Assembly (NCBI GenBank): GCA_963514005.1
Contig: OY740808.1
Location: 18,228,001-18,292,000 of the forward strand
Length of the DNA: 64,000 nucleotides
Direction of reading: 5' to 3'
Source of the DNA: Raja brachyura
Lineage: Eukaryota
Part shown: positions 7,567 through 63,358 of the stretch, piece after piece
Layout of the letters: every line of letters begins with the position of its first letter
Position numbering within the stretch: the first letter of the stretch is position 1
The notes under the pieces: generated by a model
Seen by the model: the letters and a program-made list of their open reading frames with translations, nothing else
What the model was told of the DNA's origin: nothing
Databases searched by the model: none
Program-made: the position numbers and the translations under genes

Positions 7567-7569
7567 TTT

Positions 7570-16066: not shown

Positions 16067-18279
16067 GTGATGCAAATCACCAGTAGTTGCAAGTCATACG
16101 CGGGTCCCATAAACACGGAGCTGACCTGACCCGAGGCGTGAGCTAGACTACTGATCTCCAAACTTTCGTATTGCAGAATTTGGAGGAGGGCAGGGGATGG
16201 ACTGTAAATTGAAGATATGTCTAATTGAGTCATCTCCACCTCATCCTGAGGTGACATCAATAGTCTGTTCACCTACGTAAATCAACAACACAAGTTTTGA
16301 CATTTTAATCCTTTTTTTCACATTCTTGTAGGGCTTGATAACTTTCCCAATATCTGTAAACTCATTATGCTACAGTCTGTAAAATCACAACAGATCTACT
16401 TTCTAAGCTCTTCCATGTACCTTGGTTGATGCGTTCCACCATTGGCATTCAGCTGTCAAACTCCTGGTTTTCCATAATTTCCTGTTCACTCCTTTCTCCA
16501 TTTAGATCCTCCTTAAACTGTGCCTTTCGGACAGAGCTTTTGATATCTGTCATAATACCTCTTATTTCTCTATGTCAGAATGCTCTTGTAACGTTTTTGT
16601 TTTTACTAAAGATGCTGTATAAACAAAGATTGGTGTTGTGGATAGACGTGGGAATGACCATGGAAAAGTGACAGCCCCCACACTGGGGCACAGATACAAC
16701 ACACCGAGTAACATCACGGTGTTCAACAAACACCACTTCCTCTCCGCTGAGCAGGAAAACCGAGGAAAGAGACAAAAGGGGGCAGAATCGCAAAAGCTGT
16801 CCCAGTCTGCTTTGTGTGCCTCGTTGATCTGTCCAAGTTTCTATTACCTGGCGTGAATGGAGTGCCCTGCCTCTGTGATAACACGCAGTTTTTCCCATCT
16901 TAAAAACAATGAAGTATTTTGTTCATTCTCTATGGCCTGAACTTGTAGCATGGCTATAGTATGTCAGTCAGTCCGATCTGATAATCCCTTGTAAAGTTCC
17001 AGCTATTCATTTTATCTGTGACTCCTTTAAAGGAATAAAAGTGATATTTCATTCTTGACATGAAAAATTCATCGAATGTGGCAGTGTAGATCCATCTTTA
17101 CTTAAAAGCCCTGATGGCCAGACATCAGGAGGAGCTCAGAGCTTAATATCTAATTAAACATCACAAGCGGCAGATTAGGATGATTCACGCCTGACATTTA
17201 TCACGGCATCGTTGTTTCGTTGCTGTTGCATGTTTCAGCGGATCACTGAAGGGTCAGAGTCTAATTTACACTACAGCATTTGTAAATCTTAGGTAATGTC
17301 ACCTTTGGTTATCAATGAAACTCCAGCCAAATTAAATTATTTTTTTCACGCAGACAGATACACTCTCCAATTTTGAACTCCGGGACATTGCTGTGCTGGA
17401 ATTTAAAATCATCCCATGGGCTAAAACCTTGTCCAGAGTCGAACATCCATTAATGCAGTGATCCCTCACTGCTCCCTGTCACAACTGCGTAGCTGAGCCG
17501 TGGAATAGGTTTAAACTCGTACCTTCTGATGTGAAACTAAGATCCAGTTCGGTGAGCGATGCTGGCTTGCTTGCACATTGGATGCAGATTGCTCATTTCT
17601 TTGTATTTCTAATTAATTAAATAAATGGTATGATAATGATGGTAGATATTAAAACCACAAACCATCTATCACTGATCTCACTCGCTTGGACACTCTCACT
17701 GGTAAATTAATTGAGCCCATTCTTGGGACTTGAATTGTACATTTCTGCTCTGCCTTAATTAAAGATTTATTTTGGAGTCCAGTTGAAATGTAATTCCCAG
17801 AATTGTAAATGGATTTTGCAGATTCGTGTGAATGCATTATCATTTAATTTCCTAGCATTGTTTCATAAATAGGAAATCTAGTGGGGAATTTTTCTAACGA
17901 AAACTTGCAATTTTATACTCAACCTTCCAGTTGCTTTTAATATTGTTCCAAAATGCACTTAGTTTGCTGTTTAAAACAATGCCACCATTCACAGCACGAA
18001 CATCCCCACAGAGTAACGTGGCTTTTACATTTCACATGTTGGCTCTCTTATTGAATTATGGGGCCCGTTGTTTTAAGATCAGTAACTGGTTTCAAAAATA
18101 ATATATTGTGCATAAAAGCTGTGAGATCTTTGTTTTACCCATGTTGTGGATTAAAGAGCATTTTCTGTGGAGAGGAGTGAGTGCTCTGTGAGGCATTGTG
18201 GAAAATATTAAAGGCCCTTTGTGCCTTCACAACCACTAAAATTTCAGCAAACATTGTTAATGCCGACAAGATTGACTAC

Positions 18280-18640
18280 CGGTGCTGGAATCGAGAACAT
18301 AAACGCAACAGTGGAAGAACTCAGCTGCCGAGGCAGCATCTGTAGAGGCAGAATGTAGAGTCTGACGGTTCGGGTTGAGACCCTGCATCCAGACTGAGAG
18401 GGGGCAGGATCGGTCACCAGGGGTAGGGGATGGGGCAAGTGGTAGATAATAGATGGAGCCGGATGGGAAAGGTATGATGGGCAAATGCAAGCAGGTCAGG
18501 TTGGGAATTTGGGACCAAGGCTGGGAGGTGATAGGTGGAGGCAGACAGAGAGGAGGGTGGGCAGATGGACTCAGGGGGTGGGGAATGGGGTGGCAGGCTT
18601 GAGCAGAAGAGGAAGAGATCTGGTTGGAAGTGTAGATCAC
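18280..18640 (-). mobile_element. Longer degenerate Penelope-like 3' region
   Basis: Reverse strand: pyrimidine-rich leader, then CAGTCTGGATGCAGGGTCTCAACCCGAACCGTCAGACT and downstream consensus. Confidence 0.65.
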
Positions 18641-26179: not shown

Positions 26180-26497
26180 TTTTTAGAGCAACGTCATGGA
26201 AACGGGCTGTTCAGTTCACCGAGTCCACGCCGACCATCGATCACTAGTTCTAAGTCATCCCACTTTTTCATTCACTCACTATACACGGGGGGGGGGGGAA
26301 TTTACACAGGACAATTAAGTTAATCGCAATCTCTAACATCACACGTCTTTGCGGTGTGAGAGGAAATCTGAGCACCTGGAGGAACCCACGATGTGACAGG
26401 GAGAACGTGCAAACTCCACACAGACGGCACTCGAGGTCAGGATGGAACCCGGGTCTCTGGTGCTGTGAGGCAGCAGCTCTATCCGCTGTGCCTCCCA
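26180..26497 (-). mobile_element. HE1-type V-SINE
   Basis: Reverse complement of head, core and tail (GGAGAACGTGCAAACTCCACACAGAC; GAACCCGGGTCTCTGG). Confidence 0.85.
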
Positions 26498-27530: not shown

Positions 27531-27695
27531 GTGTGTAGGAAGCAACAGCAGATGCTGGTTTATATTGAAGATAGACACAAAATGCTGGAGTAACTCAGCG
27601 GGTCAGTTCTACAGAGATGTTGCCTGTCCCAGAGTTACTCCAGCATTTTGTGTCGATCTTCAGTGTAAACCAGCATGTGCAATTCCTTCCTACAC
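27531..27695. mobile_element. Fold-back Penelope-like unit (hammerhead centre deleted)
   Basis: GTGTGTAGGAAG...GACACAAAATGCTGGAGTAACTC / GAGTTACTCCAGCATTTTGTGTC...CTTCCTACAC inverted arms. Confidence 0.85.
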
Positions 27696-27899
27696 ATTCA
27701 GTGCATCTTGCATCATGTTCAGCACAGATATTGTGGGCTGTAGGTTTTGTATGGAGTGCCTTGTAGAATGGTCATTTTTCACTCTGGTTCTCAGCAACAG
27801 GATCACCATTGTCACCCTACTGACATTTACTTAGGATACCTTGGCCCTCTGTATTTGACATCCATACCAGAGACTATTAAATCAAATTCTTAACCCAAG

Positions 27900-34250: not shown

Positions 34251-35867
34251 TGTGCACAGGCTGAAGCACTAGGTAGAACACTAATGGTTCACCCTGCACC
34301 TGCTCAGTTCATATCAAGTGATGTCTTTGTTAGGTATTGGCAACATTCCCCGACGGACATCTCGCTCTTCTGGGTGGTGAACAACGCTCAGGCAGACCAA
34401 AGGACGTCTTTCACCAAGTTGATGACCTTCCAGCAGCATTCGATGTCAGTCTCTGAATGTGTCCCTGGGAACAGTCCGTAAATCACAGAGTCCTCTGTGA
34501 CGGAGCTGTTCGGGATAAAGCGTGCCAGGGACCCTTGCATACTTCTCCAGGCTCCCTTTGCAAATCCACACTCTGCCAAGATTTGTGCTGACTAAACAAT
34601 CAAAGAACGACCATGGAGATTCCAGAGAGACTTGGATCACCATCGTTGCCATGTTGTGGAACATGGTGCACAGCCCTTTGGGAGAGAGTGGTTAGAGAAA
34701 AGGACAACATCAAGACAAGGATGAAAAGTGATGATCATTCACCACTCAGTTGTTGCTTCTTGCCGCAAGCCATATGCAATTGGCCAAATCCACGGAGCCT
34801 CTGCACGAGTTACATTGAGTGGACTTCAGATACCTGGGTCATTATCGATGATGGAGCAATTGATTGGCTCCAGCCGCAAAGTTAGAGAGGTCTCAAATCA
34901 ACATAATCACCAGAGTGAGTTTATGCTGTTTTAATGATGCTGAAAGCCTGAACGAGTCATGTGTTTTAATGTCAAATGTCCTAAACAGAACAATGAAATT
35001 CTTACTTGCAGCAGCGCAACAGAATATATAAACAGTACTCTGTAAACAAAATAAGAAATGATAAACGAGCCTGATGACTATTGGTTATTTAGGGACAAGT
35101 TCCTTGACATAGGCAATTTAAATAATTTTGAAAATAATTCAAATTAAGCAAGACATTGACTGCTTTACACCAATCTAACCAGTTAACTGCTGGGTGACAT
35201 TGTTTCATGATCATGTCCAATTGCTTAAAATTGTTTTACTCTCAGGAGGTGGAAGAGACATGGACCAGGGCTGTTTATTTTGTGAACACACTCCAAATAA
35301 ATCAGCAGCAGCTTCCTGCTCTTCCACAGTAACCAGTAAGCCAGTCTGTTGAAAGAGATTCCAAACCCTCTTGCTTATTGCATTAGTTCATGGCAGATTT
35401 TGGCTTTCGAGATTTGTATAAAGGAATTTAGGCTGAAATCAAGCAAGATCTATTTTAATAACCGATGAAAACTCTCCCGAGAAATGCTATTTAACATACT
35501 AATTTATAAAATAAAGTACATAATAATAATCATTTAAAAGCATCGCATTTGTTCCAGCAATTTAATCACATTGCAGTTTTATTTTCCATGCAGCATGCGA
35601 TGAAATTGTAGGAAAAATGGGATCATTAAATCTAATCAAAAGCTACCATGTAATGAGTTCTGCTCGTTTAATCCATGTACACACACAAACACACAGAGAC
35701 CATGGAGGTGTCTGCAGTCTTCGGGCAGTGCACCATTCATATCCCCTCCTTGAATCCAATTCATGTGTATGCAGTGAACTCCGGAAGTGTGCTTTGTACA
35801 GTGAAGCAGGTCAAGCAGCAGGGAAACCCGGCACCTGTGCTTTTCCAAAGAATCATCATTTCCCTCA

Positions 35868-36208
35868 AAGCGCCCTCCTTCACATTGGCAAGTCCAAGTG
35901 CAGATTAAGCAATTGATTTGCCGTACACCTGCACTCCGTCCACCCAGGCCTGCTGGATCTCCCAGTCGCTCACAATTTTAACTCCCCTTCCCATTCCCAC
36001 GCTGTCAGTTTCTGTCCTGGGCCTCCTCCATTGCCAGCATGAGGCCACAGCACCTCATATTCTGCTTGGATAGCTCACAACCCGGTCTGAAGAAGGATCT
36101 CGACCCGAAAAGTCACCCATTCCTTCTCTCCAGAGATGCTGCCTGTCCCCGCGGAGTTACTCCAGCTTTTTGTAACTATCCAGCGGCTTGCGTGTCGAAT
36201 TCTCCAAT
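35868..36208 (+). mobile_element. Penelope-like element GIY-YIG endonuclease remnant, interrupted by a hammerhead-bearing unit (36084-~36178)
   Basis: Translates with a stop and frameshifts as LLHIGKSKCRLSN*FAVHLHSV..DLPVAHNFNSPSHSH../SVLGLLHC../QHLIFCLDSSQP|insert|SG..VEFSN, matching the YIGxTxRxLxxRxxEH...PVAxHF...LQPxGxN pattern of PLE endonucleases. Confidence 0.8.
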
Positions 36209-37309
36209 ATGCAAGGGAATACTGGAATATTCCCCTATTCGGTACTTCCTGCCCTAGGTTTGGATAGTCTCATCAATGCTTCTAAAGGGGTGCAGCTGGA
36301 ATAGATGTACGCGACTCCCGGTTTGCTTTCAATGCACTGTCTATCGTTTGAATACAATTAATGAAGAAGATTCAGCCAGTACGCATATTTCAGCACGGGA
36401 TGAGGATGGGGTGGGAGGGTAATAGGGAGAGGGGTTTGGGTGGAGGTGCATGGTGGGGCGATGCGGAAGGAGATACCTTCCTTCACAGGATGAACATGAA
36501 GAAATTAGTGCTAAAATAACCGAATGCCTTTCATTCTGATTTACAAAGCACCTATTGCATGGAAATTAGTTGAAAACACACCATCTAACTGTAGCTTGTC
36601 TCTGCGCTGTTTTCTTGCCTGCATATGGTGTCACGACTGTAGATAAGTAGGTGCCAGGTCTAAATTATTCAACCAGCAAGCACTAGCATCTAGACAGTAA
36701 ACTCTTTGGCTCTGTTTTCATAAGGCTTGCACAATCTTGCAAACCTAATGGTGTGTGACATCCTGTTCAGAAATAGGCAGATTTGAGAAGTTTGTTGAAC
36801 AATCCTTTTGTTATAATTATATTCCCCAGTCACACGAGGACAACAATTAAATACTCCTTGGACTTTAAGGGACATGCTTAATCATGCTTATTGCAAAAAC
36901 ATATTTTAGAAAAGCAGATGGTAGCAACTAAACTCATGAAGCATACTGCAATCTGCCTGAATGTTATAACCCTTTTGTGAGTGCTGGCTTGGGTCAGTGG
37001 CTCCCTATTCTCTGAGTCGGAAGTTTTAGATTAAGCACAAATCTGATGCGGCTGATGCTTTTGAGCAGCATTAATGGATATTTAAACCAGTGTGGTTTGG
37101 GATGTGAAATTAGGTTTTATTTCATTTACAGTCACGTTTTCATGTTTTCAAAGCTGAACATTAAGAATACAATGCATTAAGATTTCTGTAATTGGTCTTT
37201 GTCTGACAGTTGTCAACAGTGATATTGTCAGAGCGATATTTCTTCCCAACCCTCCATATTCATCTGTGCTTAAGTAAGAAATGTCTTTGTTAAAATAGCG
37301 AGAAAAAAG

Positions 37310-37830
37310 GTTTGTGAAAACACCTTGGACACCATGTGCCCTAGCTTTTTGCTCTAATCAAATGCGGGGAGCTTGTCAAAACCTTCCTAAAGCCCATGTA
37401 CAGAACATCGCCTTGCCTACATCATTTTCCTTTATAATCAGCTCAAAAGTCGCAGCCAGATTTGTGAGGGAGAGCTTTCCCTGCACAGACCACACTGACT
37501 CCCCATAATCAATCTCTGATTCTCCAAGGGATCATACTTCCTGTCTCCAAGATTTTTTTCCCATAGTTTCCCTGCCGCTGATGTAAAGCTGATGGGCCTG
37601 TGGTTTCCTGGTTTATCCCCACCACTCTTCCAGAATATGGGAGTAGTGTTTGCTACCCTCCAGTCTTGCAGTCCCTCACCGTAGATGACGTAGCAGTCTC
37701 TGGCCGAGACCCAGGAATCTCCTGCCTTGTTTCCCATCAACCCCTGCGATCGATTTATTCGGGCTCCGGGGATTTGTCCATGGCAGTGTGCATCTACAGA
37801 CCTTACACTTCCTCTTTCTTGAAGCACATC
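37310..37830 (-). mobile_element. CR1 LINE internal ORF2 (RT N-terminal) fragment, degenerate
   Basis: ORF 37438-37827: DWRVANTTPIFWKSGGDKPGNHRPISFTSAAGKLWE resembles the CR1 motif WRxANVTPIFKKG..PGNYRPVSLTS. Confidence 0.85.
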
Positions 37831-38034
37831 ATTCTCTTAGCCTTGGAGGTTCAGAAAGCTTTCTCAGCCTTGTTATGGGCCAGTATCATTGTGAAACGAT
37901 GTGCAGGCAAGTGTAAAAGATCTGCCCGCCTGCACCGGGGAAGTGGCGGCATGATTGAGTGTGGTCCTCTGGCCGTAGATGGAGTGGGCAGTATTGGAGA
38001 AGGTCAGCACACGATGGCGACAGCGAGTGATGAG

Positions 38035-38192
38035 AGACACAAAATGCTGGAGTAACTCAGCGGGACAGGCAGCATCTCTGGAGAGAAGTCTCCCATTCCT
38101 TCTATCCAGAGATGTTGCCTGTCCCGCTGAGTTACTCCAGCATTTTGTGTCTATCTTGAGTGTACACCAGCATCTGCAGCTCCTTCCTTCAC
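38035..38192. mobile_element. Fold-back Penelope-like unit with 12-bp TSD
   Basis: 54-bp inverted arms (38035-38088 / 38099-38152, 2 mismatches); flanking AGTGATGAGAGA at 38026-38037 and 38199-38210. Confidence 0.9.
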
Positions 38193-38470
38193 ATGGCTAG
38201 TGATGAGAGATGTCCGCAAGAGGCAAACTTGGCAAGTAGAGCGCACTGTTTCAAGGTGGGCTCAGTGAGTAGAAAGTTGGTTTGCAACCTTGGAGTGTCT
38301 CTTGTTTTTGGATCAGTATTTGATTTTGAAGCATCCATCTGTTTGACATTATTTTACATGTAAATATCATGTGAATTTAAACGTCAGTGAAAGAAGTACA
38401 CCCAAGATGGTTGAACCAAATCCTGTGTTCGGTTTATATAGGTCTGAGTCATAGTTTAACAAATGTGGAG

Positions 38471-38678
38471 ACACCAGAAACTGCAGATGCTGGTTTACAG
38501 AAAAAGACCCAAAGTGCTGCAGTAACTCAGTGGGTCAGGCGACATCTCTGGAGAACATGGATAGGTGACGTTTCGGATCGGGACTCTTCAGACTGAAGGC
38601 TCTTGTCACCAATCCATGTTCTCCAGAGATGCTGCCTGGCCCACTGAGTTAGTCCAGCACTTTGTGCATTTTGTTTTC
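38471..38678. mobile_element. Fold-back Penelope-like unit with 13-bp TSD
   Basis: Antisense arm running through the hammerhead, then a sense arm; AACAAATG(T/C)GGAG at 38458-38470 and 38679-38691. Confidence 0.85.
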
Positions 38679-38854
38679 AACAAATGCGGAGTTGTTTGCT
38701 GGTAAAAGCATAGCTACGTTGGAGATAACATTAAATCCTAAACTGCTTGACTCACTAGTTATGGTGATTAAACTACTATTCAAAAGTCATTTACAAACTC
38801 TGTCCCGAGAGTTGGAAACCACTGTCACATTCTGAATTATCTGAAGGGATCTAC

Positions 38855-39228
38855 AGGAGGCGCTACCTCATAAAGGCAGTCAGTATCATCAAAGACCCAC
38901 ACCACCCTGGCCACACTCTCATCTCACTGCTACCATCAGGGAGAAGGTACAGGAGCCTGAAAACGGTGTCCTCCAGGCTCGAGAACAGCTTCTTCCCAAC
39001 AACCTTCAGGCTCTTGAACACTGCACAACACCAACCACTACCGTGGACTGTGTCCTTTTGGACTTCAGCTTGTACGACTGTTATTAATTTATTGTATCTT
39101 GATTATTATATATATATATACCTGTGTTGTTGCATTAATGAGCCTATTAGGCTGGAGCAAGGAAGAACTTCACTGTTCCATTACGGTACATGACCATTAA
39201 ACAGTCCTGAATCGACTCTTGACTCTTG
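38855..39228 (+). mobile_element. Rex1/Babar-type LINE 3' fragment
   Basis: ATCATCAAAGACCCACACCACCCTGGCCACACTCTCATCTC...AGAAGGTACAGGAGCCTG matches 8235-8310; (CTCTTGA)n tail. Confidence 0.85.
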
Positions 39229-40810: not shown

Positions 40811-40839
40811 CAGCAGTCAGGCAACACGTCCTCTGGATA

Positions 40840-41107
40840 TCAGTCTGAAGAAAGGTCCCGACCCAATACGTCACCTATCCATGTTCTCCAGGGATGCGGC
40901 CCGACCTGTTGTGTTACTCAAGTATTTTGTGTTTTTCTTTGGTATAAACCAGCATCTGCAGTTTCTTGTTATTACATCTCTGGAGCACATTGATAGGAGA
41001 CGTTTTGGGTTGGGACCCTTCCTTCTAATTGGGACATGCTTCACATATTCCTTTTCTTCAGAGATGCTGTCTGACCCGCTGTGTTACTCCAGCTTTTTGT
41101 CTCTATC
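40840..41107. mobile_element. Cluster of three Penelope-like units (sense, antisense, sense)
   Basis: CAGTCTGAAGAAAGGTCCCGACCCAATACGTCACC...; ATCTCTGGAG...GACGTTTTGGGTTGGGACCCTTC; TCCTTTTCTTCAGAGATGCTG.... Confidence 0.8.
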
Positions 41108-41639
41108 TCCTGAACATTTTAGTTTGTTTGTTCAGTGAACCCACCTTGGTCCAGTAAGTTCTATTTTACTGGTGGTTACCCGTTAAATCTAAGTTGGGGC
41201 TACTGCATCATTCTGTCTGATTATGTTCACTATTGGGGGTGTCCTGTCAGTCAGTTAAACCCTCAATGTTGAAGCAGTGAATTCAGGCTGCCATTTACTG
41301 AGTAGCTGGCGACAATATGACTTTTATATTCAAACTCTCCATCATAATAATAATATATTTTATTGTCATTGCACATAAGGCAACGAGATTTGGTTTGCAA
41401 CTTCCATCTGATGTCATAACTTAAACGACTAATAAAATTGAGGTTTAGATAACCTGAGAACAAGGTTTGTGAAAAGAAGGGGCACTGTAGAGGGGGAACA
41501 TGCCAGGGAGGACTGGGTGGGGCATTCCTGTCGTGTGGAGACACCAGAAGTGACCACTTGGCAAGTCTGCCCCCTCTCTCCCCCCCCAACCCCCCTCCTG
41601 TGGATACCTCGCTGTATCTCTGTCCCCCCTCCCCTCCCC

Positions 41640-42080
41640 TCCCGGGTACCAGCGGAACGAGCAGCGATGGCGGGAGCGCGCCTGGCTGTGTTGACGGGAG
41701 CGCGCAAGCCTCCCCCTGCCTGCGCGCCCCCGCCTGTAGTGGAGGCTGCGCTGGCCGACACTGCGCTCTCGGAGCGGAGCAGCGCGGCGGCGGAGGGACG
41801 GCTCCGGCTCCGGCTCCGGCTCCGGCTCGCACACCCGCAGCGGGGAAAGGGAGCGGGCCGGCTCCGGCTGCGGCTCCCGGACCATGCGTGGCCCCCGGCC
41901 CTGAGGCGCCCGCCCCGGACCCTCCTGCCCCGTCCCGTCCCGGACCCGACCCGACCCTCCTGCACCGCGCTGTGGGACAGACAGCGGCTGCTGACAGACA
42001 GCATGTGGACACCCTGCACACACTCTTGATGCTCCCCGCAACCCGCCCGTCCAAATATGATGAAATGGCAGCCCCGGAAG
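41640..42080 (+). promoter_or_regulatory. CpG island / promoter and 5' UTR of a + strand gene
   Basis: Very high GC and CpG density against the AT-rich window; (GGCTCC)n run at ~41800-41828; followed by a canonical donor. Confidence 0.8.
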
Positions 42081-42083
42081 AAG
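42029..42083 (+). CDS. Candidate coding part of the first exon (MLPATRPSKYDEMAAPEE, phase 1); gene unidentified
   Basis: ATG at 42029 (in-frame ATG at 42065), ending at AAG|GTGAGA donor; alternative frame MMKWQPRKK from 42057; the exon could also be non-coding. Confidence 0.4.
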
Positions 42084-42990
42084 GTGAGATGGGGGAGACA
42101 GGAGAGGGGGGGAGACAGAATAGGGGGGAGGGGGAGAGACAGGAGGGGGGGGGGAGAGGAGTAGACAGGAGATTTGTGAGAGGTAGAAACAGGGGAGAGA
42201 GGGGAAGGCAGGAGGAGAGGGAGTGAGAGAGGGTGACAGGACGGGGACAGGGGGTACAGACAGGCGGGGGGGGGGGGTGGCAGGGAGAAGGGAAGACTGG
42301 ATAGAGAGTAGAGGGGGGGGGGGGGAGAGAGAGAGAGTGGGAGTGGGAGGTGACAGGCAGTGAGGGCTGGGAGAGTGGGGGATCGCCCAGTTTCCGTGTG
42401 GGACAGTGCCTGTCACTCGCCCCAAGCGGTGCTCCTGCCGGGACGATGCTGTCTTCGCGTTGTCACTCTGGACGTTTTTGCACGCTTGTGATCTATTGCT
42501 GCGGAAAACTTTCTTTTTGTGCCTTTAAACAAAAAAAAAAAGCCGTGTTGCCATTCTGCGTGAGAATGTGCCGGCGCGGAGTAACTGTACATCCAGCCTG
42601 TCCACACTGTGCGTGTCAGTATTGGAGTCGCCGACACGCCGCCGGCTGGTGGGGCCGGACTGACCGCCAGTTGTTACAGGGTCTGCTGTCTGTAAATGAC
42701 CCGCGATGCCAGTGTGGTCAAAACTGCAGGCGGCAGTCAGTGGCGAAGTCCAGGTCTAGGTGGGCCAGTTGCCCAGTCTGTGGCAGTTCGTGCTGTCTGC
42801 AGGCAGTGTTGCTGCCAATGTCCTGCCCAATCTCTCCCCCCCCCCCACAAACAAAAAACCCTCAGAGTCCAATTGTTGTTATGTCCTTTCTTTTATCCAA
42901 CGCTTTATGCACCGGTTGTGCCTGTTGTGGATGCGACATGCGTGTAGATGGTGTTGGGGATACAGACACGTCTGACAATTTTATGTGCAA

Positions 42991-43166
42991 TGTGCAGGAA
43001 GGAACTGCAGATGCTGGTTTGCACCGAAGATAGACCCAAAATGCTGGAGTAACTCAGCGGGACAGGTAGCATCTCTGGAGGGAAGGAATTATTCCCTCCC
43101 TCGCTCTCTCCAGAGATGCTGCCTGTCCCACTGAGTTACTCCAGCATTTTGTGTCTGTCTTCAGTA
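42991..43166. mobile_element. Fold-back Penelope-like unit with 10-bp TSD
   Basis: Inverted arms; TTATGTGCAA at 42981-42990 and 43167-43176. Confidence 0.9.
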
Positions 43167-46182: not shown

Positions 46183-46757
46183 CACTGCGTGCCTGTTTCC
46201 ATCACTCTCCCAGCTAGTGAGGCCCACGTCATAGCCAGCGGTCAAATTTAAAACAGCACGACTTGAATCTGTTATCACTTTGGATTTGTGTCCCACACTC
46301 CTTCCGAACAGGAAGAGTTTCTGTCTAATTACAGAAGCCTGTTGTGGCTTTTCACCTCTACCAAGCATCTCAAACTTGTCCCAAGGTGAACAGTCACTGT
46401 TATCCAGCCTAAACCTGGAACTGAAACCCTCCTTGGAACCAGAATCGGTACCCTGTTCCTGCTGTCTCCCCATATCCCTTGATGCTGGATGCTAATGATT
46501 CAGGGGAGATAATTAGGCTGACAATTCGGAGAGAGTGACAGAGTCGAGGGAGCTAGTGATGAGGTTTGTTGGATCAAAGCTGTTTTCAGATAACCCCAAG
46601 AAGCAGCATTGGTTCCCATTGCAGTGTTGGTTGTGGGATTATAGAATAAAATGATTGGATTTTCTCCTTGTCTTTTCTGCTGCTGCCTTCCTGTATTTGG
46701 AAACTTGGTGAAGGTTCGGCAATTCTTCATGTCTTGGGCTTATTGAGTAAGAGTAGT

Positions 46758-46903
46758 GTATGAAGGAACTGCAGACCCTGGTTCAAACCGAAGATAGACA
46801 CAAAATGCTGGAGTAACACAGCGGGCCAGACAGGCAGAGATTCCTTCTCTCCAGAGATGCTGCCTGTCCCGCCAGTATTACTCCAGTATTTTGTGTTTAT
46901 CTT
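46758..46903. mobile_element. Fold-back Penelope-like unit
   Basis: AAGATAGACACAAAATGCTGGAGTAAC / TTACTCCAGTATTTTGTGTTTATCTT inverted arms. Confidence 0.8.
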
Positions 46904-50135: not shown

Positions 50136-51533
50136 TTGTACTAGCGTTAGGCTTGGTAGTATTTATGTCCAGCATTATCTGATCTGTTTGGCTAGCATGC
50201 AAAGCAAAGCCTTTCACTGTATCTCGGTGCACGTGATGATAATAACCCTAAACCGAAGGTTATGGGTTAGTTTGAATACTTCTTATTCAATTCATTCAAA
50301 CTTATTCATTCACTCATTCTGATAAAAGGTCAGTGATCCGAAACTTCTCTCCACAATTTTGTTTTGAATCCTGCTTGGAAGGGCAGCGACTTGCGTTTGA
50401 TATCTGGGCGACGCTGCTGTGATATCAGTGAAATATATAATGCGGTATGTAAAATCCTTGCACTTTGCCTTTCATCCATTACGGTTCCAGTAAAGTATAT
50501 CAGTGGGATGTCTACAGCAGGCACGTCACCACAGCAGGGTTGACACCATGAAATACTCCATCATTTGAATTAAATAGGATCTTAAGTGTAACTTGGAGCA
50601 ATTTTACATTAGAACTAACATTCATCCATAAATTCTGCATTAGATCAGTGATTGAAATACATTTCTTGCGTTTGAGAATTGCAACCTTGCTTCCAGTTGC
50701 CTTTCACAGTAATGGATGCATATAGATTGCCTATAACAATAGAGGTGCAGTGATCCTATGGATGACAATAATATAATCCTATAACTGAAGTAATTTTATA
50801 GATAGCTATCTCTTGAAAAGTGTGGAGTTTGCTTTTTGGAACAGTAGGAAATGACCCTGACAATTGCTAAGTTATTGAATAAACCATGAGGGAGGTAGAG
50901 CGCTGAGACACAGCACGTGCGTGTTAGCATCAGCCATTGTCACTGGGAAATAGCTTTGCTGTAAGTGCGGCAGGCAAAATGACCTCGAAATTTAATTATT
51001 AAATAAAGCGACGACACAATTCTGAGACTATCTGATGGTTAAGGGGCTTTGGTCTCCATTGTTCCCGTGCAGGTGAAACTTGGAGATATTGAAAGGAACA
51101 TGAATCACCTTTACAGCAGATGTGTAAAGTGTAATCATAAATGGATTTTTATTTTTGTGTGGGAAATTATATTTCAAAAAAAAAACCTAAGACAACCATG
51201 CATTATGATTACAACACTGCTGCTGGGCACAATAATACAATGTAGGTTTGTGCGCTCCTTGGGTGTCAGACTTTGTGCCAGGTCTCCAGAATGAACAAAA
51301 GTTGAATTTGGCTATCGTTCGAATAGTACATTGTTAGTTTTGTGAATGGAATTGGAAAATGCAGCAACTTTCTACGGCCCCACTTCCTCGATTCAACAGT
51401 CCGCAAATGTTTTTGAGAAAGTTTTAGCTCCCATCATATAAACGTACAAAGTGACTAAAAATGTGTCACCTAAAATAAAAATAGAATACTCGACAGGTCA
51501 GGCAGCATCTGTGGTAAGATGAGCAGGTAACCT

Positions 51534-51674
51534 GTGTAGGAAGGAACTGCAGATGGTGGCTTAAACCGACATCAGTCTGAAGAAGGGTCTCGACCCGAAA
51601 CGTCACCCATTCCTTCCCTCCAATGATGCTGCCTGTCCCGCTGAGTTACTCAAGCATTTTGTGTCTATCTTTGT
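51534..51674. mobile_element. Penelope-like unit with intact hammerhead, nested in an older unit; 11-bp TSD
   Basis: GCAG(G/T)TAACCT at 51523-51533 and 51675-51685; short antisense arm plus a sense arm starting at the hammerhead. Confidence 0.85.
51575..51608 (+). ncRNA. Minimal type-I hammerhead ribozyme motif
   Basis: GT-CTGAAGA-A-GGGTC TC GACCC-GAAA-CG-TC^ACCC: CUGANGA and GAAA core, stem II, palindromic ACGT in place of helix III, GUC cleavage triplet. Activity not shown. Confidence 0.75.
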
Positions 51675-52258
51675 GCAGTTAACCTTTCAGGTCGAGATTC
51701 ATATTTACCATTGGCATAGAGTTCAACAAAGTTGAACGTATCTCCAGCTAAATGTCATACCAAAAAAATTAGTGATGACATATTTACCTTTCATGGTGGA
51801 TTATTTAAAATTTATTTCTGATAAAAATCATTGTTATTCTTCATGTTTTGGATACATTGGAATCGCTGTGGACATTTTACGGCAGTCTGATCAGTGTTTG
51901 ATCAGGTTAAGTTTTCTCTCCCTTTCCTGTTGAAGGTACTGGCAAGCTTTCACCATTAGGGACTATAGACGTCCATGATTTTGCTGCGATAATGTACAAG
52001 CTGACAAAATATATAGTGTCTCAAATTGAGTACAGTAGATGTTTGCAGTAAATTGTGCTGAAGAATGGAACCTGGTCTGATGCGATCGGTTGAACGAGTT
52101 GCTGCCGCGTTGAAGGATAGTTTCGGAAAAATTCCACATGTTGGAAAAATGGGAAAGCACTGATTTGAATTAGGAGCTGGTATTCACTGCATTAATCTTG
52201 TCTGAATAAAATGTGGCTCACTGAAGCTTTGATATTAAAAACAAGCTTTTAGTAATTG

Positions 52259-52351
52259 TCTGAAGAAGGGTCTCGACCAGAAACATCGCCCATTCCTTCT
52301 CTCCAGAGATGCTGCCTGGCCCCCTGAGTTACTCTAGCATTTTGTGTCTAT
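52259..52351 (+). mobile_element. 93-bp Penelope-like unit starting at the hammerhead; 12-bp TSD
   Basis: TTTTAGTAATTG at 52247-52258 and 52352-52363. Confidence 0.9.
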
Positions 52352-52419
52352 TTTTAGTAATTGCTGTTTGCTGGTTTGGCTTGTGGCTGCTCTTTCTGAA
52401 TTGTTTGAGTGCATGTCAG

Positions 52420-52655
52420 TTTTGTGTCTCCTAGCCCTCAGCTAACAATGGCCCGTTTCCTTTATCATCGTCACTTTTTTGTATACCTTTCATTCATTTG
52501 TTCTATATCTCTCAATATCACCGTCTATATCTCTCGTTTCCCTTTGCCTTGACACTCAGTCTGAAAAAGGGCCTTGACCCGAAACGTCACCTATTCTTTC
52601 TCTCCAGAGATGCTGTCTTGACTGGCTGAGTTACGCCCACATTTTTTGGCTATTG
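52420..52655 (+). mobile_element. Penelope-like 3' region with leader and mutated hammerhead
   Basis: Pyrimidine-rich leader, then CAGTCTGAAAAAGGGCCTTGACCCGAAACGTCACC. Confidence 0.8.
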
Positions 52656-53429
52656 TTTTTTTTTTTAAAATTTGGAATCCCTTTCTTTTGTTAAAAGTAA
52701 AGTAACATTTAACCTTGTATTAACTGAGTTGTGCCATCTGACTCATAACATTGATGTTGTCAAAAACTGGGGGAGGGAAGTGGATGTCAGTGCTTCAGCT
52801 CAACACTGCTACCAAGGACTAACAACAACTCTCGTAGAAATCTTGTAGAAGAAGCTGTTCGTGCTTCAAGACAAATTGCCAATAATAGGCCTACAAATTG
52901 TTGGATTGGAAAGGCATTTCTGATATATAGTACTAATTTTCTTATATCATTGTAGTAAGAACATTTCTGTAAATCTGATATTCATGATTACTATTTATGA
53001 TAACATAAATTGTAAACTTGGCGGTATGAATTCTAGTTTTTTAGGCAATGGCTTTAAATCTCTGATATAAAGCAAAATCAGTTGGGAAGAATCTAAATAT
53101 ATATATTTTCTGGACATATGCTTGCCTGCGTATAGCAACTAGTGTGTACTGACCAATATTTTAGAATTTCAATACGCCGTCCTTAATCTGCAGTGTTTCA
53201 CAAGGACGTTGTACAGTTTGAAAGCAGGCACGAGTGAAGGTTGGTGATCATGTTGTTCTGGGTGCCGGCTTATGGTGCCAGTTCACAGGGTCACATTTAA
53301 CAAATACATGGGAAATGTTACTCCATGTTAATTCAGATTTACTTTTCACAGAGCATTGGTCGTATGAAGAAGGGACTATTTTAACGATGGAAATTTTGTG
53401 AGCCCCGGTATCATCAGCTGTAAGGGACC

Positions 53430-54180: not shown

Positions 54181-54270
54181 TAGGGAATAAAACACGCTCT
54201 CATGGAAGATAGACACAAAATGCTGGAGTAACTCAGCGGGACAGGCAGCATCTCTGGCGAGAAGGAATGT

Positions 54271-54302
54271 GTGACGTTTCGGGTCGAGACCCTTCTTCAG
54301 AC
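54271..54302 (-). ncRNA. Minimal type-I hammerhead ribozyme motif, within antisense unit 54208-54330
   Basis: Reverse complement GTCTGAAGAAGGGTCTCGACCCGAAACGTCAC, identical to 51575-51606; unit flanked by TCTCATGGAA at 54198-54207 and 54348-54357. Confidence 0.75.
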
Positions 54303-55314
54303 TTTTGAGCCGAGACCCTTCTTCAGACTTTCTTCACGTTTGTTCATTCTCATGGAATTTATGTTGATAAAGAAGAAAAGAAATGAATACTAAATGTATT
54401 TCTTTTCACGTTCCTTGACTCTTGCGCAGACGATGTGGCTTTAAGTTATGGAGAGTCGCGCCAAGGACGGCTTTGCAGGAATGCAACCCCTGCCCCATAA
54501 TGCTGGATCGCCTGAATGTGCATTGCATGTGTTGAGAAATGAGGGTAACTCCTGCAGCTCCACCCTTCAGAAACATGGAGGTCTTGACCTAGTTATCGCA
54601 ATGTTTGCCTGTGATTCTAGTCTGATTTAAGATTTAAAGGAAAATGAATGCAGATGTCCTTTTTGTGTGTTTCTGCTTATTCAGCTCCTGAAATAATCTA
54701 ATCTTATGAAGTTCAGCAGTATATGTTGCTGATGCGAGGGATGATGTACTGAAAATATCATTCCCAGCTTCTGCAACCATTTGCAAGATTTAGTTTACTT
54801 TTGCACAGACAAGTAAATGAGTGACATTGATTGCTTCTCCCCCCAGCACCTCCCTTCACACTCTCTCCAAGTTATGACAAAGACATTACAGAGACATGTT
54901 TAATGTGTTGCTCCTTAATGCTGTGTGATTTCTCCAGCCCTCCACATTTAATGGATTGCTTTGTGCATGTTTTGCTGTGATCTGGGTTTAGGTATCAGTA
55001 GTTTGGACAACAGTAGCTGCTACAAAGAACAGCTTATTGACGTGGGACATCCACAGGGCATAGTACTGACGGACAAATGCAAACTTGCTTATTGTTTGGG
55101 ATTCCAAATCCAGCCCCTGTCAATGAGAAATTGATTCTGTGGCGTATCGCCGGAGGTCGGTTCTTAGATGCAGGGCCGACAGCACTGGGGTGGTGAACAA
55201 TATAAAACGCTCTCTGGCTCCCGTCTTTGGATCAGTCGGGGCTCTTTGCGAGCGGAGAATGTGAGAGTGAGTTTCTGCACAACTCGAAAACCTTGCTGCA
55301 CCACCGAGTGTTGG

Positions 55315-55698: not shown

Positions 55699-55953
55699 GT
55701 CTGAAGAAGGGTCTCGACCAGAAACGTCACCTATTCTTTTCAGGCAAGGTAAAATAACAAGGTGTTCCTCAGCCTTTCTTGAATTACTCGTGTGTCTGAC
55801 TTAGGATGGGTTTGGGCAGGTCTTCGACCCATTTACAATCTGCTTTGAATCATTTTCAGTCCAAAGAAGGGTCTTGACCCAGAAACGTCACCTATTCCTT
55901 TTCTCCAGAGATGCTGTCTGACCCGCTGAGTTACTCCAGCTCTTTGTGTCTAT
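55699..55953 (+). mobile_element. Two sense Penelope-like hammerhead units (55699-55740; 55857-55953) flanking a non-family 109-bp segment
   Basis: GTCTGAAGAAGGGTCTCGACCAGAAACGTCACC and AAGAAGGGTCTTGACCCAGAAACGTCACC. Confidence 0.8.
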
Positions 55954-56378
55954 TCTGAGCGTCCATTGTTGGGAGATTCACCTCGCCTCCCTGAGTTAGT
56001 GCGGCAATATCAATAATTGAATCAACTACATTCATTTTTCTCTTTCTTTTATCCCTTTCCAATTCTGTTTTCCTTTTTCAGGGCAGTTTTTTTTTTACTG
56101 CAGTTTGTGGAACACATTGGTTTAAGTTAGCTGATAGAGCCAAGAAAATGAATTGACCACAAACAAAGCAATACTTGTGGTAGGAGCTCGGTGAAACAAA
56201 CAGAACTCGGGTAGAAAGTTCAGGATGATCTTCAATTTAAGCTACAGGATTGAATAAATACCATAAAATGAGCAAAAGTGTTTGGCAAGTCTGAAGTTGT
56301 TTGCATCAGTTAAATAATAGCTAACCAGTGACATTGCGTCAGTATTAAATATATATGGTCATTAACTCCACGTAATTC

Positions 56379-57013
56379 ATAGCAAAAGGATTTGATTTGA
56401 GTATAGGAGCAGGGAGGTTCTACTTCAGTTGTATAGGGTCTTGGTGAGGCCACACCTGGAGTATTGCGTACAGTTCTGGTCTCCAAATCTGAGGAAGGAC
56501 ATTATTGCCATAGAGGGAGTGCAGCAAAGGTTCACCAGACTGATTCCTGGGATGTCAGGACTGTCTTATGAACAAAGACTGCATAGACTCGGTTTATACT
56601 CTCTAGAATTTAGGAGATTGAGAGGGGATCTTATAGAAACTTACAAGATTCTTAAGGGGTTGGACAGGCTAGATGCAGGAAGATTGTTCCCGATGTTGGG
56701 GAGGTCCAGGACAAGGGGTCACAGCTTAAGGATAAGGGGGAAATCCTTTAGGACCGAGATGAGAAGGAATTTTTTCACACAGAGAGTGGTGGGTCTCTGG
56801 AACTCTCTGCCACAGAGGGTAGTTGAGGCCAGTTCATTGGATATATTTAAGAGGGAGTTAGATGTGGCCCTTGTGGCTAAGGGGATCAGAGGGTATGGAG
56901 AGAAGGCAGGTACAGGATACTGAGTTGGATGATCAGCCATGATCAAATTGAATGGCGGTGCAGGCTCGAAGGGCCGAATGGCCTATTCCTGCACCTAATT
57001 TCTATATTTCTAT
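56379..57013 (+). mobile_element. Young 5'-truncated CR1 LINE
   Basis: Uninterrupted ORF 56429-56923 (LVRPHLEYCVQFWSP...RGDLIETYKI...RVVGLWNSLP); (TTTCTAT)n tail; 7-bp TSD GTAATTC at 56372-56378 and 57014-57020. Confidence 0.95.
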
Positions 57014-58900: not shown

Positions 58901-59182
58901 AAAGAGAGCCTTGATATATTTGGATCGTAATAAATCCGTCTACTCATTTGATTGTGACGCAAAGGCTGTTTATTCCGTTGAGTTTCTGCTCACTCTCACG
59001 CCATTCCCGTTTCCCCACAATATCACCCATCACAGGTTCATCAACCTCCCCTGATTATCCTGCCACCTCTCTACACTGGGATCCAGTGAACCTCCCAGCA
59101 CCTCTCTGGGATGCAGGAGGTAACTACACAGCCCGGGCATATTTTCCATGTGCACACCCCACTGACAGTACCCGAGGATTGT

Positions 59183-59467
59183 GTTTAGAGATGCAGCGTG
59201 TAAACAGGCCCTTTGGCCCACCGAGTCCGACCAATGATCACCCCCACACGCTAGTTCTAACCGACACACTAGGGTCAATTTACAGAAGCCAGTTAACCCA
59301 CAGACCTGCACGACTTTGGGGTGTGGGAGGAAACGGGAGCACCCGGAGAAAACCCACGCGGTCACAGGGAGAACGTACAAATTCTGCATAGACAGCACTC
59401 GTGGTCAGGTTTGAGCCTGGGCCTCTGGCGCTGTGAGACAGCAACTCTACCGCTGAGCCACTGTTCC
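59183..59467 (-). mobile_element. HE1-type V-SINE, adjacent to an older SINE remnant at 59040-59180
   Basis: GTTTAGAGATGCAGCG...AAACCCACGCGGTCACAGGGAGAACGTAC...CAACTCTACCGCTGAGCCAC. Confidence 0.88.
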
Positions 59468-61098
59468 CCTGTCTAACATTTTTTTTCCTGCGAAGGCAGT
59501 CCCCCACATCAACAGATTGTGCAGCTGAGTTTCCCGCATTTGGGGACATCGCAGGTGTCAGCACACACAAAGTGCAATGGGATAGCCGCGTCTCGGGAGA
59601 TCGGCCATCGTGACCACCGGTTCTCCCCTGCCAGGTCAGGATCAAACCTGGACTGCTGGAGCCGTGCAGATGCTGCGTTATTTGCTGCACTACTGTACAA
59701 ACCGTGCAGCTTGCAAACTGCAATACAAGAGTTTGCATTCCTCAGATAACAACAGAAAATCGAGTGGGATCTGGGCTCCAGATACATACATTAGATTCTC
59801 CAGTATTTTTGCATTTCTTGATTATTCATCATGTAGCTAAATCCAACACGACCCAACACAGACAGCCGTGTTTCCTGAAACCCAACTCCATATGACCTCT
59901 GGCAGGCGTGCCTCAAGTCTCTGCTATCGGAGTATATGTGAATACCTCTTGGAAATCTAAATAACCATCCACTTGGAAGCAATGGAGAGAGTCACTAACG
60001 TTACTAATCTTGCCTACCATCTCACCAAAAACATTTATACATTAATCTCAAATGATCTAGCTGAGTTACTGGTGGTTTTGAATCCTCCCACATTTGAACA
60101 TTTTCAGCGTTCTCGTTTTGTTTTGTCCCTGCCACTTGCTTCTCGTGGGTGTGATGGAGGAAGCTGGAGTCCACGCCTGCGCTGTTGTTCCCGGCACCCA
60201 TTTTGGGCTTGAGTTCTTCCTGCAAGGGCTCTTCCCTGCTCAAAGTTTTCTTTCCGCTTTGCATCATGTTCTTTTCCCACCACAAATGAGCAAGAGCGAA
60301 CACTTTGCCTGAATTTGGAAGGGGGACTCCAATCATTTAGCAGAGTGCCCAATGTCTATATTGTAGCTGGTGGCCCCGAATTGAGTTGGCCTTTATCACT
60401 GTTCTGCGTGTGTTCAAATAAAAGTCTTCACAGAGGCCAGGGCTTTTTCAGGTGGCAGCTCTACATATTTGATTCCCATTGCAGAGAAGCTGTTTGTTCA
60501 CAGAGTACAGGGTGCCCTTGCCTCCCCCCTCTGCCTGCACCACGGCATTCCCAGTGGCACTCCTCAACTTCCATACATGGACACGATGGAAAATGCCGTG
60601 CTGGTTTTTGTGGAATCGCCTTTGTAAGACATATTACAGGGAAAATGGTGAATGAAGCTTGTGTCAGTCTGGTTTCAATAATACTTGACAGAATTACATA
60701 ACATTACATGATAAATAACAAGGTGCTGCTCAGATTTTCTTCAATTACACACGTCTCTGACGTAGGATGAGTTTGCACAGCCCTTCGACCCATTTGCAAT
60801 TTGCTTTGAACCACTTTCAGTAACTTTGGATGCACTTTTTGGACAGTTTTATCTGAACAAAGCTCAAAATATATTTTATATTCCAGGAACCAATGCGCTG
60901 TGTTCAGTAGTGGATCAGTCATGAGTGGCACTATACACAAGTTGTGTCACTTTTGTTTATTTGAAAGAAGTGATACTGTCAGCAGAAGCAGAATTGTACA
61001 GTGTGACAGTGTGTGGTCCTGGAGTCAAGCCTTGCTTTGGTTAGGCTGCATTTGTGTGCAGTTCTGGTCACCCCATTCCAGGAAGGATGTCTAGCTAA

Positions 61099-62811: not shown

Positions 62812-63167
62812 TAAGCCTCTGCTTTGTAATCACAAGCATTATCTGGAATTTGTTTTATTGGGAACAATGCTGGAGAAGTGGTTTTGGTGGCACCTGTTGG
62901 AATTATACTGGCGATGACAATGGTAGTTCACCTTGGTTTGTTTTTCACCTCCTTGTCACTGGTTTTAATTATCTTTAAGCTTGACACTAACGGCTGCATT
63001 AGGATCCCTGATCCACCACTCTATCGCCCAAGACCACCAGCGACCCCTGCCCCTGTCACCAACGCTCTGGCAGTAATTTGGCAGAGGGCAGGTCTCGGGA
63101 TTCCCCTTTCATGTTAGCTGCTCATCTATTCTCATCATCCGTTGACAGCACCACCCAAATTATTGAT

Positions 63168-63358
63168 ATACACAAAAAGCTGGAGTAACTCAGCTTGTCA
63201 GCCAGCATCTCTGAAGAAAAAGAATAGGTGACGTTTTGGGTTGAGATGGAATGTCACCTATTCCTTTTCTCAAGCGATGCTGTCTAACCCACTGAGTTAC
63301 TCCAGCTTTTTGTGTCTATCTTGGGTTCAAACCAGCATCTGCAGTTCCTTCCTACACA
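63168..63358. mobile_element. Fold-back Penelope-like unit
   Basis: ACACAAAAAGCTGGAGTAACTCAG...AATAGGTGAC / GTCACCTATT...CTGAGTTACTCCAGCTTTTTGTGT. Confidence 0.85.

What the first reader, a model, noticed from the sequence alone, without database searches (positions are those of the whole stretch)
51575..51608. High-copy short repeat carrying a minimal hammerhead ribozyme
Seen: GT-CTGAAGA-A-GGGTCTCGACCC-GAAA-CG-TC-AC occurs intact at 51575 (+) and 54271 (-), near-intact at 36084, 52258, 52559 and 55699, and decayed in many more of the ~30 copies counted by eye. Established: the CUGANGA...GAAA...NUH core with helix III reduced to a palindromic tetramer is the minimal type-I hammerhead described in Penelope-like retroelements, proposed to cleave as a dimer. 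Inference: this genome is loaded, at about one copy per 2 kb here, with a non-autonomous ribozyme-bearing retroelement (retrozyme-like) that standard annotation would call an unknown repeat. I cannot tell whether it has been described for this lineage.
Basis: partly seen in the sequence, partly recalled or inferred. Interest (0 to 1): 0.75.

Follow-up and report, generated by a model that had tools for sequence, protein, structure and literature searches.

The report
Penelope retrotransposon ends carrying minimal hammerheads
The motif is a real minimal hammerhead-ribozyme sequence at the front of a very abundant short repeat that is likely the left-over end piece of Penelope-like jumping genes in a cartilaginous fish, a kind of element already known to carry such ribozymes, and this old copy is predicted not to cut itself unaided.

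Summary
Observation confirmed. 51575-51606 fits the published minimal type-I hammerhead; a descriptor finds 2 intact copies in the window against 0.005 expected. The motif is the first third of a ~98-nt repeat with an optional ~37-nt tail, at about 30 loci. [quoted passage not shown] 'Retrozyme' is not supported: there are no tandem arrays. Only 2 of 22 ribozyme-spanning copies are intact, copies decay evenly, helix I has 2 bp, and the flagged insertion is shared by three organisms, so it is old. Not shown: cleavage, or DNA continuity from ORF to ribozyme in this genome. An earlier scan note reported the same kind in another shark genome. Worth keeping: the copy number, and 5' ends piling up at the ribozyme's 5' edge, not at its cleavage site. 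New member of a known kind.

The parts
51575..51606 (+). Minimal type-I hammerhead motif: 2-bp helix I, CUGAAGA core, extra A, 4-bp helix II, GAAA, palindromic CG in place of helix III, UC; predicted cut 51604/51605
   Evidence: consensus in PMC4209133 supplement
51574..51671 (+). ~98-nt 'head' of the repeat (subfamily A), inferred PLE pseudo-LTR segment from the ribozyme's 5' edge to the first 3' boundary
   Evidence: loose ends pile up before 51574/51575 and behind 51671/51673
51566..51573 (+). Few bases of the element's upstream sequence; with 51574-51577 they form TCAGTCT, an initiator-like and also splice-acceptor-like motif (both labels recalled)
   Evidence: shared with the upstream of copy 12827(-)
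51533..51569 (-). ~37-nt PLE-type tail, placed inverted in front of the head
   Evidence: in other genomic copies it follows the head directly (joints 51563-51568 to 51671 on opposite strands)
51523..51533 (+). Left copy of an 11-bp target-site duplication (1 mismatch)
51675..51685 (+). Right copy of the 11-bp target-site duplication
51468..51700 (-). Older, related copy (subfamily D-like) into which the flagged copy inserted, at the older copy's own GAAA/cleavage-site region
   Evidence: flanks read across the insertion align with copies 12729(-) and 11531(+), scores 52 and 39
54206..54329 (-). Second intact ribozyme copy (54271-54302), preceded by a partial duplicate of its 5' half; 10-bp target duplication
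52258..52352 (+). Head copy with perfect 12-bp target duplication; ribozyme damaged
52430..52653 (+). Copy with ~130 nt of pyrimidine-rich upstream sequence (inferred PLE 3' UTR part of the pseudo-LTR); G8 lost
55699..55955 (+). Two further dispersed copies (55699-55739 truncated; 55856-55955)
35866..36210 (+). Decayed GIY-YIG endonuclease C-terminus of a PLE (one stop, frameshifts), interrupted by the repeat copy 36085-36180
38029..38194 (.). Example of a head-to-head inverted insertion with tail and 14-bp target duplication (others: 21595-21796, 27532-27697, 38463-38666, 40829-41110, 42991-43162, 46756-46903, 63162-63358)
18277..18640 (-). Old copy with the longest pyrimidine-rich upstream extension, sharing a motif with the upstream of 11531(+), 12827(-) and 29753(+)

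Best explanation
The flagged motif is a minimal type-I hammerhead sequence at the 5' edge of a ~98-nt repeat that is likely the truncated pseudo-LTR of a Neptune-type Penelope-like retrotransposon, likely copied into the genome by that element's own reverse transcriptase and endonuclease and now likely an inert fossil. Steps: (1) shown: motif, two 3' boundaries ~37 nt apart, inverted arms, 10-14-bp target duplications. (2) Inferred from the Anolis Poseidon element (PMC11167929): the enzyme nicks AT-rich DNA and starts reverse transcription inside the RNA at two sites, here ~98 and ~135 nt downstream of the ribozyme's 5' edge, which gives the head and head-plus-tail ends. (3) Inferred: most copies stop at the ribozyme's 5' edge because the RNA template begins there (initiator-like TCAGTCT); the minority copied from the downstream pseudo-LTR continue into the pyrimidine-rich 3' UTR. 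The template was therefore mostly uncleaved. (4) Inferred from published behaviour of the class: in the parent element two motifs would pair through the palindromic ACGU and cleave after C17, slowly and probably only with the PLE protein's help. (5) After insertion the copies decay without selection on the ribozyme.
For: Motif fits the published consensus and looks like the Acropora Neptune example. 3' ends: 20 of 43 segments end at unit positions 90-107 and 13 of 43 at 133-138; PLE tails are 30-40 bp and may sit at either end (PMC8557442). Head-to-head arms in 8 of 30 loci, also described for PLEs. Duplications of 10 bp or more in 10 of 30 loci against 3.7% of 300 random pairs. 5 of 17 copies that reach the 5' edge continue into pyrimidine-rich sequence, 4 of them sharing a motif; contigs join segment 52430-52545 to the head in all four runs. 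A decayed endonuclease at 35866-36083 matches whale-shark and little-skate proteins (9 of 10 hits; tblastn E about 1e-7 to 1e-11) whose longer relatives carry PLE RT motifs, PF26215 and a CxxxxCxxC linker. Zebra-shark P0015 runs RT, endonuclease, a Pro/Ser/Leu-rich read-through, then ends in SLMKGLRPKR, against SLKKGLDPKR for the window motif (score 37; 11 of 3000 shuffles; best of the other proteins 31). Nested insertion into older PLE sequence at 51533 and 36085; PLEs tend to insert into or beside earlier copies (PMC6765202). Even decay of 0.11-0.13 per site in core, stems, flanks and tail; CpG sites 32% changed against 15%. The flagged insertion is entered from unique flank in organisms C, D and E, which differ by about 2-3% in unique DNA.
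Against: No copy in the window is continuous with an RT or endonuclease ORF: the one endonuclease remnant is interrupted by the copy, not followed by it, and a profile search found no other remnant. The ORF-to-ribozyme link rests on one predicted protein from another species, which could be a spliced gene model. No covariation: helix pairs do no better than shuffles (357 of 500 reach the observed pairing). No Rfam hammerhead hit. Helix I is 2 bp, shorter than most published examples. The predicted fold hides the core (helix II pair probability 0.001; active dimer -6.1 against -26.9 kcal/mol for the best cofold), which argues against activity of this copy. The strong pile-up at one 5' position is also what a dedicated short master RNA would give. 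The start site is inferred from insertion ends only.
Confidence: 0.8

Rival explanations
1. The short copies come from dedicated non-autonomous master elements (a SINE-like ~135-nt RNA derived from the pseudo-LTR) that borrow the Neptune enzyme, not from the autonomous transcript.
For: Most copies begin within a few bases of one position: the top loose ends lie before 51574/51575 with unrelated AT-rich flanks (agreement 0.31-0.32) in all DNA runs. Depth on the one upstream segment laid is about 0.34 million against about 15 million summed over the three head bins (not a copy number). Four subfamilies can be told apart.
Against: The same heads occur with upstream extensions of different lengths. 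Internal priming on the autonomous RNA already yields short products in vitro (PMC11167929). No poly(A) tail and no tRNA gene.
Confidence: 0.15
2. It is a non-LTR retrozyme that spreads as tandem arrays or circular RNA cut out by its own ribozymes.
For: Some contigs join a tail end directly to a head start (37-42 contigs per DNA run). Retrozymes derive from PLE pseudo-LTRs and were found in one chondrichthyan genome, mean unit 363 bp (bioRxiv 10.64898/2026.07.22.740005).
Against: No tandem array of the unit among 18 rows. Copy ends do not coincide with the cleavage site: 51605 is not among the top loose ends shown. A tail placed before a head is also normal PLE anatomy.
Confidence: 0.04
3. The 5' pile-up marks a splice acceptor or a reverse-transcriptase stall at the ribozyme, not a transcription start (a rival to step 3 only; the element is still a PLE end).
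For: The upstream is pyrimidine-rich, contains CTGAC and ends in CAG just before U2.1. In Drosophila virilis Penelope an intron ends at the 5' side of helix I (PMC4209133) and the start site lies further upstream (PMC2377424).
Against: Spliced templates would give a shared first exon upstream; the loose ends before 51574/51575 share no sequence (agreement 0.31). The loose-end consensus ends in G in 6 of 7 listed rows, a weak hint of a copied cap.
Confidence: 0.25
4. This particular copy has been kept by the host as a working ribozyme or regulatory element.
For: It is one of 2 intact copies among 22 and is present in three organisms.
Against: It belongs to the youngest subfamily and is 94% identical to the other intact copy over the head, so an intact motif is expected by chance; decay is even over the unit; the predicted fold is inactive.
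Confidence: 0.03

Closest known systems
Minimal hammerheads (min-HHR) of metazoan PLE pseudo-LTRs (Cervera & De la Pena 2014, PMC4209133)
   Same: Type-I layout, CUGANGA plus one extra base, G10.1-C11.1, GAAA, palindromic 15.2-16.2, NUH; mostly single dispersed motifs; pairs on opposite strands. Closest listed layout: Acropora digitifera Neptune.
   Different: Helix I 2 bp and helix II 4 bp (both at the short end of the published range). No chondrichthyan among the 40 species in the supplement file searched. Density here would far exceed the ~4,000 and ~9,000 motifs given for coelacanth and Xenopus if the window is typical.
Neptune clade of endonuclease-bearing PLEs (described in PMC8557442)
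   Same: Tail of 30-40 bp, inverted truncated arm, heavy 5' truncation; chondrichthyan relatives of the window's endonuclease remnant have the Cys-rich linker before GIY-YIG.
   Different: No full-length or partial-tandem element in the window; target duplications are visible here (10 of 30 loci); no microsatellite targeting seen.
Poseidon element of Anolis carolinensis (PAc; PMC11167929)
   Same: Two 3' ends a tail-length apart downstream of the ribozyme; AT-rich targets; insertion ends unrelated to the cleavage site.
   Different: Other clade. In PAc the ORF starts inside the ribozyme; here no reading frame is open through the head in all subfamilies (read).
Animal non-LTR retrozymes (bioRxiv 10.64898/2026.07.22.740005)
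   Same: Derived from PLE pseudo-LTRs, carry type-I hammerheads, non-coding.
   Different: Those are tandem repeats with a ribozyme in each unit; these are dispersed single or inverted insertions with target duplications.

Membership tests
PLE minimal type-I hammerhead | Core CUGANGA, extra base, GAAA, NUH in type-I order | tested here: met
PLE minimal type-I hammerhead | Helix II of 4 bp or more closed by G10.1-C11.1 | tested here: met
   4 of 4 pairs in the flagged copy; 84.7% of cells paired in 18 copies
PLE minimal type-I hammerhead | Palindromic 15.2-16.2 in place of helix III | tested here: met
   CG in the flagged copy and in three of four subfamily consensuses; TG in the oldest, a CpG decay product
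PLE minimal type-I hammerhead | Helix I closing the core (3-5 bp in most published cases) | tested here: inconclusive
   Only 2 bp; third pair in 1 of 17 copies. 2-bp cases are published for D. virilis and Culex
PLE minimal type-I hammerhead | Compensatory changes in the helices | tested here: inconclusive
   No excess over shuffles in 18 closely related, decayed copies
PLE minimal type-I hammerhead | Self-cleavage after H17 as a dimer or with protein | not testable with these tools
   No raw RNA reads; predicted fold unfavourable
Rfam hammerhead families | Match to a curated covariance model | tested here: not met
   No hit at E<=10; that the missing helix III explains this is inference
Penelope-like element (pseudo-LTR remnant) | Optional 30-40-bp tail at either end | tested here: met
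   definition
Penelope-like element (pseudo-LTR remnant) | Inverted 5'-truncated copy adjoining the 5' end | tested here: met
   8 of 30 loci; opposite-strand joints in all four runs
Penelope-like element (pseudo-LTR remnant) | Repeat lies downstream of an RT plus GIY-YIG ORF | tested here: inconclusive
   Not continuous in the window; supported by zebra-shark P0015 at protein level only
Penelope-like element (pseudo-LTR remnant) | Partial tandem with a full-length ORF | not testable with these tools
   No genome held; none in the window
Neptune clade | Cys-rich linker between RT and endonuclease | tested here: inconclusive
   Present in the chondrichthyan relatives (compare); the window remnant does not reach that part
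Non-LTR retrozyme | Tandem array of two or more units, each with a complete ribozyme | tested here: not met
   definition
Non-LTR retrozyme | Unit-length circular RNA joined at the cleavage site | not testable with these tools
   Only contigs available

The most novel reading that the evidence does not exclude
These repeats are run-off copies of the very 5' end of the capped, uncleaved Neptune RNA: priming at two internal sites and a stop at the start site turn an autonomous PLE into a SINE factory without any SINE gene. At one locus per 2 kb the genome would hold several hundred thousand to a million such ends and tens of thousands of intact hammerhead sequences, far above published vertebrate counts, giving a fossil map of the start site and both priming sites at single-base resolution.
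Probability: 0.3. Interest if true: 0.5.

Novelty: new member of a known kind. Interest (0 to 1): 0.25.

Why it matters
The kind has been in print since 2014, so the catch is correct but not a discovery. What remains useful: (a) a repeat family that covers roughly 7% of this window can be assigned to PLEs; (b) the role of PLE hammerheads is still open, and here the insertion ends avoid the cleavage site, in line with in vitro work showing that uncleaved RNA is the substrate; (c) with so many dated copies, one assembly would allow a strong test of where PLE transcription and reverse transcription start.

Tried and rejected
No whole genome was held, so there is no genome-wide consensus or count. 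Exact-pattern scans of viral, metagenome and prokaryote contigs found 0 matches. The word-index protein search with the endonuclease remnant found nothing; the HMMER search did, and its top hit P0001 is an unrelated repetitive protein that I set aside. Pfam gave no hit on the remnant itself (4 readings); 5 of 10 relatives hit GIY-YIG below the curated cut-off. A search with the translated head found one uninformative 81-aa protein. No RNA holder listed; run X1 was marked probably DNA and all four runs laid were contigs, so expression and cleavage ends are untested. A longer helix I was looked for by eye, by descriptor and by pair counts and not found. RNAalifold on 12 head-plus-tail segments gave one 5-bp head-to-tail helix with no compensatory change. 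Rfam miRNA-like hits at 38049 and 43041 are the inverted arms, below gathering scores, rejected. A chance motif is rejected. The host gene, and whether the copy lies in an intron, were not determined. Lunse et al. 2017 is not held; I saw it only as cited in PMC6765202. Literature searches for a chondrichthyan description (and supplement searches) found no paper describing this repeat; PMC4350176 reports PLEs in all species studied, elephant shark among them. Supplement file 1 of PMC4209133 could not be searched, the bioRxiv supplements are closed, and Repbase/Dfam were not available, so the family may well be catalogued.

Full report
1. Observation. The motif is there as described. The 30-nt core matches 6 places with up to 3 mismatches and none in 100 shuffles. 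A descriptor for the minimal hammerhead finds only 51577(+) and 54300(-), against a mean of 0.005 in 200 simulated windows. The layout agrees with the consensus of 56 motifs from 40 species in Fig. S3 of PMC4209133. Rfam has no hammerhead hit at E<=10.

2. The real unit. BLAST and nhmmer with 51501-51720 show a longer repeat. Mapping all segments on one reference gives 43 segments (one tail counted twice), 23 on + and 20 on -, which I grouped by hand into 30 loci. 3' ends fall in two groups, 20 of 43 at unit positions 90-107 and 13 of 43 at 133-138, so there is a ~98-nt head and an optional ~37-nt tail (the reference ends at 138, but 10 of the 13 stop at 133-135). Eight of 30 loci are head-to-head inversions. 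Ten of 30 have flanking direct repeats of 10-14 bp with at most one mismatch, against 3.7% of 300 random pairs (boundaries hand-set, and one repeat overlaps the element's first bases). Of 17 copies that reach the ribozyme's 5' edge, 5 continue into pyrimidine-rich sequence and 4 of those share a motif; most of the rest start within about 8 bases of the edge or abut an inverted arm. No tandem array of the unit exists among 18 rows, and no tRNA gene.

3. The flagged locus. It is an inverted tail (51533-51569) plus a head (51574-51671) between 11-bp duplications, inserted into an older related copy on the other strand at that copy's cleavage-site region.

4. Genome-wide view from public contigs (4 of the 11 runs listed, stretch 50900-53400, 85% likeness). 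In X6, 232,452 of 16.0 million contigs were laid; summed depth is 9.1 million on 51572-51655 and about 6-20 on unique flank. The tool warns that this is no copy number; the window density alone (30 loci in 64 kb) would give several hundred thousand loci in 1.6 Gb if typical. The top loose ends lie before 51572 (the upstream segment continuing), before 51574 and 51575 (long, unrelated, AT-rich), and behind 51671 and 51673 (tail or flank). The cleavage site 51605 is not among the rows shown; 2,974 weaker rows were not shown, so a smaller peak there is not excluded. In the window, five segments start at positions 26-30, a few bases upstream of the cut. Joints show head-to-tail, head-to-head, tail-to-head and upstream-to-head forms. 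In organisms C, D and E single contigs run from unique flank into the flagged insertion on both sides and on into the copy at 52258, while D and E differ from the window by 13 and 17 letters in about 660. The insertion therefore predates their split.

5. Link to a protein-coding element. 35866-36083 encodes a broken GIY-YIG C-terminus. HMMER finds 10 proteins, 9 of them related, including whale-shark and little-skate gene models. Their longer relatives (88 hits) carry RT, PF26215 and a CxxxxCxxC linker before the endonuclease, the linker that marks Neptune and Nematis (PMC8557442) and resembles Neptune1_Nv in its supplement. This places the window in a cartilaginous fish (inference). The repeat copy at 36085 interrupts this remnant and does not follow it, so it is a nested insertion, not proof of linkage, and no other remnant was found. 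The best linkage evidence is P0015 (zebra shark), which reads through the endonuclease end and a Pro/Ser/Leu-rich stretch and stops in SLMKGLRPKRQLLCS; the window motif in the same frame reads SLKKGLDPKRH (score 37, 11 of 3000 shuffles). L-M-K and K-R-Q are compatible with CUGAUGA and GAAACGUC. This is one predicted protein from another species.

6. Is the ribozyme under selection or active? Two of 22 copies spanning it are intact. Copies differ from their subfamily consensus by 0.11-0.13 per site in core, stems, flanks and tail alike, and CpG sites have changed at 32% against 15%: neutral decay. Among four subfamily consensuses (8-13 segments each, assigned by eye) the ribozyme varies at 3 of 32 columns and the rest at 19 of 97 (p=0.28; p=0.04 without two CpG columns), while positions 51-82 vary at only 3 of 32. 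This suggests, but does not show, selection on the master elements. Pair counts give no covariation beyond shuffles, and helix I stops at 2 bp. In the flagged copy the sequence after the cut is predicted to pair with the core, leaving helix II at probability 0.001. Published minimal motifs do not cleave as monomers and cleave weakly as dimers (PMC4209133); the Anolis one needs the PLE protein and is dispensable for insertion in vitro (PMC11167929); 8 of 9 Xenopus dimers tested did not cleave (bioRxiv).

7. Mechanism. The two 3' boundaries match the two internal priming sites that explain the PLE tail in Anolis; this step is inferred by analogy. The 5' pile-up at TCAGTCT suggests run-off at a transcription start (initiator label recalled); the loose-end consensus ends in G in 6 of 7 rows before 51574/51575, a weak hint of a copied cap, but only about 1 of 9 window copies shows an extra G. 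A splice acceptor at the same spot, as in D. virilis, or a dedicated short master RNA are the rivals.

8. Papers, what I saw. PMC4209133: main text parts 1-2 of 4, supplement file 2 parts 1-2 of 3 and a term search. PMC11167929: parts 1-2 of 4. bioRxiv 10.64898/2026.07.22.740005: parts 1 and 3 of 5 and passages; supplements closed. PMC8557442: passages and a term search of one supplement. PMC2377424, PMC6765202, PMC6155905, PMC4350176: passages. Lunse 2017: not seen. Seven searches turned up no description of this chondrichthyan repeat, but repeat libraries were not available.

9. Verdict. Observation confirmed; interpretation partly supported; new member of a known kind; interest 0.25.

Noticed in passing
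window 59491-59642 (-): U1 snRNA match, 85 bits against a gathering score of 69.5, with several changes and a shortened last stem: likely a U1 retropseudogene.
   Followed up: no
window 35866-36210 (+): Decayed PLE GIY-YIG endonuclease end with a younger pseudo-LTR copy inserted near its C-terminus.
   Followed up: yes
window 51468-51700 (-): The flagged copy landed in the cleavage-site region of an older related copy.
   Followed up: yes
window 54304-54329 (-): Direct duplicate of the ribozyme's 5' half plus about 18 extra bases inside the target duplication, as if reverse transcription restarted at the 5' end.
   Followed up: partly
window 7555-8386 (+), 9689-10354 (-), 37441-37836 (-), 38768-39190 (+), 56396-56920 (+): LINE remnants: RVT_1 at 7555, zf-RVT below cut-off at 9689, an RT-like match at 37474-37668; the labels L2-like, L1-like and CR1-like would be recalled, not tested.
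   Followed up: no
window 3494-3806, 7277-7582, 14093-14356, 26180-26480, 46097, 49247, 59182-59448: A second dispersed repeat family (D9, D11, D19), resembling elasmobranch V-SINEs as I recall them; not tested.
   Followed up: no
window 41400-42500: GC-rich island with (CGGCTC)5 and long open frames on both strands, probably a gene start; gene not identified.
   Followed up: partly
repeat unit positions 49-56 and 108-115: Head and tail can pair (5-bp helix in 10-11 of 12 segments, no compensatory change), a candidate structure for protein binding or priming.
   Followed up: partly
window 51574-51575: Loose-end consensus before these positions ends in G in 6 of 7 rows although flanks are AT-rich: possible copied cap.
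   Followed up: partly
protein P0004 (whale shark): Its N-terminus resembles the antisense translation of the repeat head and is followed by endonuclease sequence, as an inverted arm would give; weak match, E 0.55.
   Followed up: partly
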